Source: Fidelibacterota bacterium (GTDB taxonomy: Bacteria > Fidelibacterota > Marinisomatia > SCGC-AAA003-L08 > JACNLC01). From it: a stretch of DNA of 32,000 bases. Shown here piece after piece: positions 14,223-15,540 of the stretch. The number at the start of each line of letters is the position of its first letter. Position 1 is the stretch's first letter. The stretch lies in contig JABHXA010000005.1 in assembly GCA_018657495.1 (NCBI GenBank), positions 104,749-136,748 on the forward strand, read 5' to 3'. The translations under genes and the position numbers were made by a program. The notes beneath the pieces are model-generated. The model was not told the DNA's origin. It was given only the letters and a program-made list of their open reading frames with translations, and made no database searches.

Positions 14223-14486
14223 TTAACAGGTAGCTTCTTTTTGTCCCGTTAAAGCTGCTCTGAACATGGCAGCGGCGCATCCAACACCGCTTTCCACTGC
14301 GATCGCTCCTTCACTGCAATTCAATCGACAGGCTCCGCATTCCATACAGGCAACGGGATTATCCAAATGGGCTTTTTTATTTATCATGGTAAACACCGCA
14401 TGGGGACAAACAATGGTACATAGTCGGCATCCGTTACACAATTCAGGATTATATGTGAGTGTATTTACTTGAGAGACATTAAACAT
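14223..14486 (-). CDS. hgcB: HgcB-like 2x[4Fe-4S] ferredoxin, mercury methylation accessory protein
   Basis: CNGCRLCTIVCP and CMECGACRLNC clusters, then GVGCA and a C-terminal Cys (KEATC). Starts 13 nt downstream of the hgcA-like gene. Confidence 0.88.
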   Translation of the reverse strand: MFNVSQVNTLTYNPELCNGCRLCTIVCPHAVFTMINKKAHLDNPVACMECGACRLNCSEGAIAVESGVGCAAAMFRAALTGQKEATC

Positions 14487-14499
14487 ATTTCATACCTCC

Positions 14500-15540
14500 C
14501 TAAACCAGATTGCTAACAATTAACACGGTGGTTCCAAAGACAGCCATGACTGCCATGACAGGTCCATAAATAAAAATCTCTTTTCTTACACCGCTCCGTG
14601 AGGCAAATGTGGATGAACCGGTGAAATTTAATGCCAGAAAAGCGGTAATCGATGTCCATAGCAAAAATGACCCAATTATATGACCCAACATTCTCCATAA
14701 TTCAACATCAGGATTATCAACAAAAATCAAATACCCAAAAACTGCCGCAATCAGTCCGCCCAATTGGAATCCCTTGGCGGTAAAATCCTTTGTAGGCAGC
14801 CATGGCAATAGCAATGGAAATAAAACTAATCCAGAAAATATTGCCGCCATCCAGCCACCGATAGTATAATGATTTACCAGATCTCCAAAAAAGAATAGAG
14901 AGAGCAAAATCATCACAATCATAAATGGGGATCGAAATTCAACTGGGATTAATACCGCCCGATCAAAAATACCAAAACGGACTCTCCGTAATTCAGCATC
15001 CACTTTTCGGTTATTAAGATAATCAGGGAGATCGCTTGCCTTTACCGGACCAAACTCGACTTTGAATCCTGTTCGTTCTTTCACTTCAAATGAAATTATA
15101 CCTGGTGCACCTAATTGCGGTAATATGACTTTGTGATGTTTGACATGTTCGTGAAGTTTAACAGCATCGATCCTGTGTACGAGTTCATCGGTTCCAAATG
15201 TCCCTTTACCAGCGGCACACCAAACATTAATTCCCTGTGTATCCAGAACCAGTATAAAACAATCGATTCCTTTTAGGGCGGAGCGCAAAGCATCAAAACT
15301 TAGTGTGTAATTGGCGGTGACAAAAACCTTAGAATTTTCATCAGGCATTCCTAAAGTATATAATCCTGGAATAACGAGGTGTTCATTCCGCCTCAAACCA
15401 ATACGAGCCTTAAAATGATCAAGATGATTTTTAAAGGTTAGAGTGCTTTCGGTTTTTTTAATAACAGCATCATCAGGATGAAAAGTTGTAGTTGAATCCT
15501 TCTCATTTGAACAACATGAATTTGTGGATTTGCAGTCCAA
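14500..15540 (-). CDS. hgcA: HgcA-like corrinoid mercury methyltransferase
   Basis: Cap-helix motif GINVWCAAGKGTFGT, corrinoid-domain sequence HKVILPQLGAPGI and KVEFGPVKASDLPDYL, C-terminal multi-TM domain with LNFTGSSTFASRSGVRKE. TTG start preceded by AGGGAG; 346 aa. Confidence 0.92.
   Translation of the reverse strand: MDCKSTNSCCSNEKDSTTTFHPDDAVIKKTESTLTFKNHLDHFKARIGLRRNEHLVIPGLYTLGMPDENSKVFVTANYTLSFDALRSALKGIDCFILVLDTQGINVWCAAGKGTFGTDELVHRIDAVKLHEHVKHHKVILPQLGAPGIISFEVKERTGFKVEFGPVKASDLPDYLNNRKVDAELRRVRFGIFDRAVLIPVEFRSPFMIVMILLSLFFFGDLVNHYTIGGWMAAIFSGLVLFPLLLPWLPTKDFTAKGFQLGGLIAAVFGYLIFVDNPDVELWRMLGHIIGSFLLWTSITAFLALNFTGSSTFASRSGVRKEIFIYGPVMAVMAVFGTTVLIVSNLV

What the first reader, a model, noticed from the sequence alone, without database searches (positions are those of the whole stretch)
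14223..15540. Probable hgcAB mercury-methylation operon
The 346-aa protein carries the diagnostic HgcA cap-helix motif (NVWCAAGK) in a corrinoid-binding domain fused to a C-terminal multi-TM domain with LNFTGSST...SGV. The adjacent 87-aa protein is a dicluster ferredoxin with CMECGAC, as in HgcB. HgcAB is necessary for Hg(II) to methylmercury conversion in known methylators. The genes look intact and are 13 nt apart, in hgcA-hgcB order. The system is known, and HgcA homologs have been reported from Marinimicrobia, but it is rare, patchily distributed and often annotated as acetyl-CoA synthase subunit or hypothetical.
Basis: partly seen in the sequence, partly recalled or inferred. Interest (0 to 1): 0.92.

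Follow-up and report, generated by a model that had tools for sequence, protein, structure and literature searches.

The report
Marinimicrobia hgcAB mercury-methylation gene pair
This is an intact hgcA-hgcB gene pair, the genes needed to turn inorganic mercury into toxic methylmercury, in an uncultured marine Marinimicrobia bacterium; it is real and under selection, but this lineage's hgcAB was already described in 2021.

Summary
A 346-aa ORF (14500..15540, minus strand) carries NVWCAAGK at residues 105-112. An 87-aa two-cluster ferredoxin (14223..14486) lies 13 nt downstream.

Both pass NCBI's curated equivalog models. HgcA scores 401 bits (cut-off 275). HgcB scores 101 bits (cut-off 99), typical of its short-tailed clade. 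HgcA fails the CFeSP gamma-subunit and fused HgcAB-like models.

AlphaFold2 gives a corrinoid-binding domain plus five membrane helices. The best PDB fold match is the deposited HgcAB model. Cys108 aligns with the cap-helix Thr of CFeSP. A rooted tree places the protein inside HgcA.

Three sub-lineages (90-93% identical) keep the pair at one chromosomal site, with dN/dS 0.06-0.09 (hgcA) and 0.02 (hgcB).

Identical proteins occur on over 120 public contigs. NCBI labels them Candidatus Marinimicrobia 'carbon monoxide dehydrogenase'. Lin et al. 2021 (PMC8163782) already reported Marinimicrobia hgcAB with the same features.

Verdict: interpretation supported, novelty 'already known', modest interest. 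Methylation activity is still untested.

Minor points: HgcB has a single C-terminal Cys. A conserved N-terminal Cys triad in HgcA is cut off by NCBI's start call. A conserved GC-rich hairpin lies upstream.

The parts
14500..15540 (-). hgcA: 346-aa corrinoid methyltransferase with a membrane domain (TTG start, TAG stop)
   Evidence: ORF. NCBIfam NF040863 HgcA_corrinoid scores 401.2 bits against a cut-off of 275, covering residues 27-345. The best PDB fold match is 9a0b_A, the HgcAB model. dN/dS is 0.06-0.09.
15463..15540 (-). N-terminal 26 residues of HgcA with Cys triad C3, C9, C10 (CX5CC); outside the family model and predicted disordered
   Evidence: The cysteines are conserved in all 90-93% variants. 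The TTG start and its SD are conserved in three sub-lineages while upstream DNA diverges. pLDDT is below 50 for residues 1-21. 30 of 78 homologs have two or more N-terminal Cys.
14947..15462 (-). [quoted passage not shown]
   Evidence: Pfam PF03599 CdhD matches residues 58-174. PDB sequence hits are 4djd_C and 2h9a_A. Foldseek matches CFeSP chains over 126-135 columns at rmsd 2.5-3.1.
15205..15228 (-). Cap-helix motif NVWCAAGK (residues 105-112); Cys108 is the predicted cobalt ligand
   Evidence: Regex match and sequence read directly. N105 V106 W107 C108 A109 G111 K112 are invariant in 78 homologs. C108 aligns with Thr in the CFeSP sequence VLTA.
14503..14946 (-). Transmembrane domain (residues 199-346) with five helices, including the conserved LNFTGSSTFASRSGV loop (304-318)
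   Evidence: Five Kyte-Doolittle segments. AF2 helices at 200-217, 224-247, 253-275, 281-309 and 315-345. Only 6-7 differences in 148 residues between sub-lineages.
14487..14499 (-). 13-nt hgcA-hgcB spacer with a Shine-Dalgarno sequence (GGAGG), implying co-transcription
   Evidence: Sequence. The same GGGAGG spacer is present in L003 and L004.
14223..14486 (-). hgcB: 87-aa 2x[4Fe-4S] ferredoxin with Cys70 (equivalent to ND132 Cys73) and a single C-terminal Cys87
   Evidence: NCBIfam NF040864 scores 101.2 bits against a cut-off of 99. HgcBs next to related HgcAs score 99.8-112. Motifs. dN/dS is about 0.02.
15541..15551 (-). Ribosome-binding site of hgcA (AGGGAGAAGCT immediately before the TTG)
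   Evidence: Purine-rich SD is conserved upstream of the TTG in the window, L003 and L004. An in-frame stop three codons upstream prevents any longer form in the window.

Best explanation
The region encodes a genuine, intact, co-transcribed hgcA-hgcB pair of an uncultured marine Marinimicrobia (Neomarinimicrobiota/Fidelibacterota) lineage.

Inferred mechanism, taken from the characterised Pseudodesulfovibrio mercurii ND132 enzyme: HgcA is anchored in the membrane by five C-terminal helices. Its cytoplasmic Rossmann-like domain binds cobalamin, with Cys108 of the cap helix as the lower axial cobalt ligand ('Cys-on'). HgcB, a two-[4Fe-4S] ferredoxin, reduces the cobalt to Co(I). The Co(I) corrinoid takes a methyl group (from S-adenosylmethionine in the purified ND132 complex) to form methyl-Co(III). 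The methyl group then passes to Hg(II), which is probably presented by HgcB thiols (Cys70 and the terminal Cys87), releasing methylmercury.

Shown here: family membership, domain architecture, all catalytic and ligand residues, operon structure, purifying selection, and stable chromosomal residence in Marinimicrobia. Inferred: cofactor binding, methyl donor, and actual Hg methylation in this organism.
For: Curated equivalog HMMs are passed for both proteins, while the CFeSP and fusion models fail.

The cap-helix motif and Cys108 are invariant across 78 homologs. Cys108 aligns with the cap-helix Thr of CFeSP.

Five TM helices are predicted. The top PDB fold hit is the HgcAB model 9a0b_A (E = 3e-19, 37% identity over 325 columns). 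CFeSP matches only the corrinoid domain. The rooted NJ tree places the protein inside HgcA.

HgcB has two CX2CX2CX3C motifs, the CMECGAC signature (61 of 65 HgcBs), the GVGC cysteine (64 of 65) and a terminal Cys.

dN/dS is 0.06-0.09 for hgcA and 0.016-0.019 for hgcB at dS 0.5-1.0. Neighbouring housekeeping genes give 0.03-0.05. Synteny is the same in three sub-lineages and on contigs up to 364 kb.

Literature: the ND132 C93, C73 and C94/C95 mutagenesis is summarised in PMC7305189. SAM as methyl donor and Co-thiolate ligation are in PMC11588087. Marinimicrobia hgcA was the most transcribed hgcA in Saanich Inlet (PMC8163782).
Against: No Marinimicrobia isolate exists, and no protein of this clade has been assayed.

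The protein is only about 37% identical to the validated ND132 HgcA and 60% or less to any HgcA outside its own clade.

HgcB has only one Cys after Cys70, whereas 60 of 65 sampled HgcBs have two or more.

The AF2 model has low confidence exactly at residues 109-112 and no helix is assigned there, so the Cys-on geometry is not confirmed.

The published lineage encodes terminal oxidases (PMC8163782). The known enzyme is oxygen-sensitive (PMC11588087).
Confidence: 0.85

Rival explanations
1. The pair is a true HgcAB homolog, but in this micro-aerobic heterotroph it serves another methyl-transfer or redox role. It would then contribute little or no methylmercury in situ, with Hg methylation being a side reaction or absent.
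For: The native function of HgcAB is unknown, and possession does not confer Hg resistance (PMC7305189 introduction). Strong purifying selection in seawater with picomolar Hg argues for a benefit unrelated to Hg. No mer genes or other Hg-handling genes are adjacent. The HgcB tail has a single Cys.
Against: Every residue known to be required for methylation in ND132 is present. A single C-terminal Cys sufficed in ND132 (PMC7305189). All hgcAB-carrying isolates tested so far methylate Hg (stated in PMC8163782). Marinimicrobia hgcA transcripts were abundant along the Saanich Inlet redoxcline, a site with measured Hg and MeHg profiles (PMC8163782).
Confidence: 0.12
2. It is a corrinoid iron-sulfur protein or CODH/ACS subunit of the Wood-Ljungdahl pathway, as the NCBI name 'carbon monoxide dehydrogenase' implies.
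For: The only Pfam hit is PF03599 CdhD. PDB sequence hits are CFeSP large subunits at E = 1e-9 to 3e-11.
Against: The CFeSP model scores 80.6 bits against a cut-off of 306, and the match covers only about 120 residues at the C-terminal end of that model. There is no N-terminal [4Fe-4S] domain and no TIM-barrel domain. Five TM helices are present that CFeSP lacks. Cys replaces the CFeSP Thr. The protein is outside the CFeSP outgroup in the tree. There are no acs/cdh genes in 32 kb.
Confidence: 0.01
3. The genes are decaying relics of a horizontal transfer, or an assembly or binning artefact that does not belong to Marinimicrobia.
For: The nearest relatives outside the clade are archaeal and Chloroflexota HgcAs at 55-57% identity, consistent with lateral acquisition (PMC10083202). 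A truncated ORF6N (mobile-element-type) gene abuts hgcA.
Against: dN/dS is as low as for housekeeping neighbours. The exact protein was seen on 123 + 85 contigs from many samples, up to 364 kb long, always in the same Marinimicrobia gene neighbourhood. GC of hgcA (39.6%) is close to that of the window (38.4%).
Confidence: 0.02

Closest known systems
Marinimicrobia HgcAB of Saanich Inlet MAGs (Lin et al. 2021, ISME J, PMC8163782; e.g. SI037_bin139)
   Same: Same phylum label on identical public proteins. hgcB is contiguous downstream of hgcA. Five TM helices, the cap-helix Cys, two ferredoxin motifs and a C-terminal Cys are present. MAG GC of 37.2-37.4% compares with 38.4% here. There is 56% identity to archaeal HgcA (PMC10083202), and 55-57% here. 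It is very probably the same lineage.
   Different: Direct sequence identity could not be checked, because the sequence is not in the held supplements. Lin et al. reported a single identical hgcA in 15 MAGs. Public data examined here hold at least three variants, 90-93% identical, at the same locus.
HgcA/HgcB of Pseudodesulfovibrio mercurii (Desulfovibrio desulfuricans) ND132, the experimentally characterised system
   Same: Same two-gene order and architecture. The cap-helix Cys (C93 in ND132, C108 here), HgcB Cys73 (C70 here), two [4Fe-4S] motifs and at least one C-terminal Cys are shared. The fold matches the ND132 model 9a0b_A.
   Different: About 37% identity. HgcB ends in one Cys rather than a CC pair. 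HgcA has an N-terminal CX5CC extension. The host is a marine heterotroph with aerobic respiratory genes (PMC8163782) rather than a sulfate reducer.
Corrinoid iron-sulfur protein large subunit (AcsC/CdhE; PDB 2H9A, 4DJD)
   Same: The corrinoid-binding Rossmann-like domain is homologous: 27-28% identity, rmsd 2.5-3.1 A over about 130 residues.
   Different: CFeSP has an N-terminal [4Fe-4S] domain and a TIM barrel, no membrane domain, and Thr where HgcA has the cobalt-ligating Cys. It passes its methyl group to nickel in ACS as a methyl cation, and does not methylate Hg(II).
HgcAB-like fusion proteins (NCBIfam NF043039)
   Same: Both domains are related: 201.6 bits for HgcA and 46 bits for HgcB against the fusion model.
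   Different: Here there are two separate genes with their own stop, SD and start. The score is below the fusion model's cut-off of 285.

Membership tests
HgcA (mercury methylation corrinoid protein) | Scores above the curated equivalog HMM cut-off (NCBIfam NF040863) | tested here: met
   401.2 bits against a cut-off of 275, E = 3.2e-120, covering residues 27-345 of the protein and 1-324 of 325 in the model.
HgcA (mercury methylation corrinoid protein) | Cap-helix motif N(V/I)WCA(A/G)GK with the strictly conserved Cys | tested here: met
   NVWCAAGK at residues 105-112. The motif is invariant in 78 homologs. Cys108 aligns with Thr of CFeSP VLTA.
HgcA (mercury methylation corrinoid protein) | N-terminal corrinoid-binding domain homologous to the CFeSP large subunit | tested here: met
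   PF03599 at 53.5 bits. PDB hits 4djd_C and 2h9a_A. Foldseek probability 1.00 to five CFeSP chains.
HgcA (mercury methylation corrinoid protein) | C-terminal domain of five transmembrane helices | tested here: met
   Five hydropathy segments. Five AF2 helices between residues 200 and 345.
HgcA (mercury methylation corrinoid protein) | Phylogenetic placement within HgcA, outside CFeSP (CdhD/E) | tested here: met
   In an NJ tree of the corrinoid domain, 83 HgcAs are monophyletic relative to two CFeSP outgroups. Distance is 0.36 (median) to HgcAs and 0.69-0.72 to CFeSP. This is NJ only with two outgroups; no ML tree with support values was made.
HgcA (mercury methylation corrinoid protein) | Cys-on cobalamin binding and Hg(II) methylation activity | not testable with these tools
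   The AF2 model lacks a cofactor and has pLDDT below 50 at residues 109-112. Biochemistry or complementation is needed.
HgcB (mercury methylation ferredoxin) | Scores above the curated equivalog HMM cut-off (NCBIfam NF040864) | tested here: met
   101.2 bits against a cut-off of 99, a narrow pass. Seven HgcBs encoded next to HgcAs score 99.8-131.8, and those of the nearest clades score 99.8-112, so the low margin is typical of the clade.
HgcB (mercury methylation ferredoxin) | Two CX2CX2CX3C [4Fe-4S] motifs, encoded immediately downstream of hgcA | tested here: met
   Motifs at residues 17-27 and 47-57. The gene starts 13 nt after the hgcA stop. The second motif is followed by Ser rather than Pro, as in 8 of 65 sampled HgcBs.
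HgcB (mercury methylation ferredoxin) | Strictly conserved Cys about 12 residues after the second cluster motif (ND132 Cys73) | tested here: met
   Cys70 in GVGC, 13 residues after Cys57. A GxGC motif is present in 64 of 65 sampled HgcBs.
HgcB (mercury methylation ferredoxin) | At least one Cys in the C-terminal tail | tested here: met
   Cys87 is the last residue and the stop codon is TAA. It is the only tail Cys; 60 of 65 sampled HgcBs have two or more. One Cys sufficed in ND132 (PMC7305189).
CFeSP large subunit (AcsC/CdhE) | Full-length match including the N-terminal [4Fe-4S] and TIM-barrel domains; curated HMM cut-off | tested here: not met
   PRK04165 scores 80.6 bits against a cut-off of 306, matching only model positions 324-447 of 450.
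HgcAB-like fusion protein (NF043039) | Single polypeptide with HgcA-like and HgcB-like parts; curated HMM cut-off | tested here: not met
   201.6 bits against a cut-off of 285. There are two separate ORFs with a stop, an SD and a start between them.

The most novel reading that the evidence does not exclude
The Marinimicrobia clade may use a variant Hg(II) hand-off. Its HgcB tail is cut to a single terminal Cys, while its HgcA carries a conserved, disordered N-terminal CX5CC triad that current NCBI gene models remove. The triad could supply the second and third thiols for Hg(II) capture next to the corrinoid. In a lineage with aerobic respiratory genes this might be part of an adaptation allowing methylation in low-oxygen rather than strictly anoxic water. 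A general compensation rule is not supported: across 65 HgcA/HgcB pairs, N-terminal and tail Cys counts correlate positively (rho = 0.38). The combination seen here is, however, unusual among short-tailed HgcBs.
Probability: 0.08. Interest if true: 0.6.

Novelty: already known. Interest (0 to 1): 0.3.

Why it matters
Which microbes make methylmercury in the ocean water column is still an open question, because the candidate lineages (Nitrospina, Marinimicrobia) are uncultured and none has been shown to methylate. This window is a clean, full-context copy of the Marinimicrobia candidate, suitable for synthesis and complementation.

It adds small practical points:
- The correct 346-aa start.
- hgcB is missed by some gene callers.
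- At least three sequence variants share one chromosomal site under strong purifying selection.

It does not change what is known. The gene pair, its host phylum, its conserved residues and its probable lateral origin are all published.

Tried and rejected
- **Genome scan with the single protein.** A scan of GTDB representative genomes found nothing. The rerun with an alignment returned 80 HgcA loci, none from Marinimicrobia and all 57% identical or less. The species representative set apparently lacks this locus.
- **Direct comparison with the published Marinimicrobia HgcA.** The sequence is not in the held supplements. JGI sample 3300004274, which carries the identical protein, could not be traced to a study.
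- **Residue numbers in Lin et al. Table S3.** I compared these by eye with the window protein. Most fit a constant offset, but the residues involved are conserved across the family, so this does not discriminate and I did not use it.
- **Rfam scan of the whole window.** No hit, so no cobalamin or SAM riboswitch.
- **Sigma-70 promoter scan.** 10 sites found against 8.6 expected, so uninformative. FCB-group promoters are not covered by the tool.
- **Selenocysteine recoding to explain the short HgcB tail.** Rejected: the stop codon is TAA.
- **N-terminal HgcA cysteines compensating for few HgcB tail cysteines.** Rejected as a general rule (rho = +0.38). N-termini taken from longest ORFs may be over-extended.
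- **ArsR-type regulator or mer genes next to hgcAB.** None in the window.
- **Literature search for heterologous tests of marine HgcAB.** Nothing found.

Full report
**Observation**

The two ORFs exist exactly as described, both on the minus strand.
- ORF 14500..15540 encodes 346 aa from a TTG start. ORF 14223..14486 encodes 87 aa from an ATG start. A 13-nt spacer containing GGAGG separates them.
- NVWCAAGK occupies residues 105-112 (window 15205..15228). LNFTGSSTFASRSGV occupies residues 304-318.
- The small protein has CNGCRLCTIVCP (17-28), CMECGACRLNC (47-57), Cys70 in GVGC, and Cys87 as its last residue before a TAA stop.

**Family assignment**

Pfam sees only the CdhD domain (residues 58-174) and generic Fer4 families. 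This explains the public names 'carbon monoxide dehydrogenase' and '4Fe-4S binding protein'.

NCBI's curated equivalog models are decisive:

| Model | Score (bits) | Cut-off (bits) | Result |
|---|---|---|---|
| HgcA_corrinoid | 401.2 | 275 | pass |
| HgcB_ferredoxin | 101.2 | 99 | narrow pass |
| Fused HgcAB_like | 201.6 | 285 | fail |
| CFeSP gamma subunit PRK04165 | 80.6 | 306 | fail |

The HgcB margin is thin, so I scored seven other HgcBs encoded next to HgcAs. Those of the nearest clades score 99.8-112 bits, and a Firmicutes-type one scores 131.8. The low margin is therefore a property of this short-tailed clade.

**Structure**

- PDB holds no experimentally solved HgcA. By sequence, only CFeSP large subunits match, over about 120 residues.
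- AlphaFold2 with a 78-sequence alignment gave mean pLDDT 78.6 and pTM 0.68. The model has an alpha/beta domain (residues 27-198) and five long helices at 200-217, 224-247, 253-275, 281-309 and 315-345. These match five hydropathy peaks.
- The top Foldseek hit against PDB is 9a0b_A, the deposited computational model of the ND132 HgcAB complex (E = 3e-19, 37% identity over 325 columns). Five CFeSP chains follow, matching only the corrinoid domain (rmsd 2.5-3.1 A over 126-135 columns).
- In the HMMER and MAFFT alignments, Cys108 falls on the Thr of the CFeSP cap helix (VLTA). By my count this is Thr374 of 2H9A. From my own knowledge of the CFeSP structure, that Thr lies under the cobalt.
- The AF2 model itself has pLDDT below 50 at residues 109-112 and assigns no helix there.

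**Phylogeny and relatives**

- Of 8000 scored homologs, one 90%-identity cluster is close (its representative is 93% identical) and everything else is 60% or less.
- A pattern scan of GTDB representative genomes with the alignment returned HgcA loci from Methanoperedens, Anaerolineales, Syntrophobacterales and others, at 40-57% identity.
- In an NJ tree of the corrinoid domain with two CFeSP fragments as outgroup, all 83 HgcAs are monophyletic. The window protein is at median distance 0.36 from other HgcAs and 0.69-0.72 from CFeSP.
- The archaeal and Chloroflexota neighbourhood and the roughly 56% identity ceiling match what Lin et al. 2023 report for Marinimicrobia HgcA, which they interpret as lateral acquisition (PMC10083202).

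**Host and distribution**

- The exact HgcA sequence is on 123 contigs in NCBI, Logan and ENA, and on 85 in JGI. NCBI members are labelled Candidatus Marinimicrobia or Neomarinimicrobiota bacterium (MBT3251523.1 and others).
- Housekeeping proteins of the window carry the same label.
- Contigs of 72-184 kb fetched from different samples show the same gene order as the window, and contigs carrying these proteins reach 364 kb. Misbinning is therefore excluded.

**Selection**

- Two further sub-lineages carry hgcAB between the same neighbours: L003 with 90% HgcA identity, and L004/L005 with 92%. The neighbours are S8 peptidase, glgC, glgA and an LRR protein on one side, and phoH, thiolase and beta-oxidation genes on the other.
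- Nei-Gojobori dN/dS is 0.057-0.086 for hgcA and 0.016-0.019 for hgcB, at dS 0.48-0.98. The values for glgC, phoH and thiolase are 0.025-0.049.
- The genes are thus maintained by purifying selection and were inherited vertically since before these sub-lineages split.
- Within the clade the membrane domain is the most conserved part: 6-7 differences in 148 residues, against 15-23 in 172 for the corrinoid domain.

**Gene-model details**

- The window has an in-frame stop three codons upstream of the TTG. The only other canonical in-frame starts are at codons 49 and 65, which would remove invariant residues.
- The TTG and a purine-rich SD 4-5 nt upstream are conserved in all three sub-lineages, while the rest of the upstream DNA diverges.
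- NCBI's 320-aa form starts at an ATT (codon 27). It drops 26 residues that contain a conserved Cys triad (C3, C9, C10).
- 30 of 78 homologs also have two or more N-terminal cysteines, often in a CC pair.
- Some public gene calls miss hgcB and report an antisense 68-aa ORF instead.

**HgcB tail**

- 60 of 65 sampled HgcBs have two or more Cys after the GVGC cysteine. Only the window, its three sister loci (L003-L005) and one other locus (L030) have exactly one.
- In ND132, either C94 or C95 alone supports wild-type activity, and only the double mutant loses 95% (PMC7305189). The minimal requirement is therefore met.

**Mechanism**

This part is inferred from the ND132 system (PMC7305189; PMC11588087).
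1. HgcB reduces the HgcA-bound corrinoid to Co(I).
2. SAM methylates it to methyl-Co(III), with Cys ligation.
3. The methyl group is transferred to Hg(II), which is handled by HgcB thiols.

Nothing in the sequence contradicts this, but nothing here tests it.

**Comparison with the literature**

Lin et al. 2021 (PMC8163782) already reported the following:
- hgcAB in 15 Marinimicrobia MAGs from Saanich Inlet (37.2-37.4% GC, about 3.1-3.4 Mb), with hgcB contiguous to hgcA.
- The highest hgcA transcription among the putative methylators they identified there.
- A global read distribution.
- Homology models showing five TM helices, the cap-helix Cys, two ferredoxin motifs and a C-terminal Cys.

The window (38.4% GC) fits this description in every respect. 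I could not align the sequences directly.

**Context**

- No ArsR-type regulator, no mer genes, no riboswitch.
- Upstream of hgcA lies a 5'-truncated ORF6N gene and a conserved GC-rich hairpin.
- In L004/L005 a 38-nt perfect inverted repeat containing that hairpin flanks 408 nt just upstream of hgcA.

**Verdict**

This is a bona fide, selected hgcAB operon of the already-described Marinimicrobia putative methylator. Novelty is 'already known', and interest is modest at 0.3.

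Noticed in passing
window 15754..15777; L004 5378..5861: A perfect 10-bp-stem GC-rich hairpin (CTGTCCCCCGCTGGCGGGGGACAG) lies about 213 nt upstream of the hgcA start, in a 38% GC genome. Its core is invariant in all three sub-lineages, although the surrounding intergenic DNA diverges. In L004/L005 a 38-nt perfect inverted repeat containing the hairpin flanks a 408-nt segment directly upstream of hgcA. This could be a MITE-like insertion or an invertible segment. It also creates the spurious 373-aa 'long' HgcA gene calls.
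   Followed up: partly
window 15724..16029 (+): A 101-aa ORF matches only the C-terminal half of the ORF6N domain (profile positions 42-86 of 86), a domain typical of phage and mobile-element antirepressor-like proteins. It is truncated at the hairpin and abuts the hgcA upstream region. It may be a relic of the element that brought hgcAB in. L004/L005 have a 120-aa version.
   Followed up: partly
window 14266..14472 (+): A 68-aa ORF antisense to hgcB is what some public gene calls report instead of hgcB (L001, L003). As a result, hgcB is silently missing from those annotations.
   Followed up: yes
window 15463..15540 (-): NCBI models this HgcA as 320 aa starting from an ATT codon. The conserved TTG and SD support 346 aa. 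The extra 26 residues carry a conserved Cys triad (CX5CC). About 38% of HgcA homologs have two or more N-terminal Cys, often in a CC pair. I did not find this discussed in the papers I read.
   Followed up: partly
window 12866..14179 (+): A 437-aa dockerin-domain protein gene sits between hgcB and phoH in this sub-lineage only. L003, L004 and L005 have 384-470 nt of spacer there instead.
   Followed up: partly
window 15..1574, 12866..14179, 16205..18016, 20849..23278: Four predicted secreted proteins carry type I dockerin domains. One also has a Por/T9SS C-terminal sorting domain, one has leucine-rich repeats and one has an S8 peptidase domain. A second S8 peptidase is at 23350..24882. This is an unusual density of dockerin modules for a planktonic marine bacterium.
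   Followed up: no
window 1855..6141 and 26044..26940: A metal and redox cluster: a DsbD_2 membrane protein, a heavy-metal P-type ATPase with the PF12156 N-terminal metal-binding domain (from my own knowledge, this domain is typical of the CcoI/FixI-type ATPases that mature cbb3 oxidase), a hemerythrin-domain protein and an Rrf2-family regulator. A CDF cation-efflux transporter lies further on. This is consistent with a micro-aerobic lifestyle, but no link to hgcAB was shown.
   Followed up: no
L087 10001..11280 (GCA_020346745.1, CP070787.1): A closed 3.1-Mb 'Fidelibacterota' MAG carries a different hgcAB (HgcA 56% identical) in an unrelated neighbourhood (NrfD-type, multihaem cytochrome c3, sigma-54 two-component genes). 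The phylum therefore holds at least two hgcAB types at different loci. This goes beyond the single acquisition inferred in 2021.
   Followed up: partly
window 14503..14946 (-) vs 14947..15462 (-): Within the Marinimicrobia clade the HgcA membrane domain is more conserved than the corrinoid domain: 4-5% of residues differ in the membrane domain, against 9-13% in the corrinoid domain. The function of the membrane domain is unknown.
   Followed up: partly
window 28372..29667 (+): The longest-ORF form of the EPSP synthase overlaps the preceding prephenate dehydrogenase gene by 59 nt. It is the only one of seven window proteins checked whose exact sequence is absent from the public collection. Its true start is probably further downstream.
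   Followed up: no
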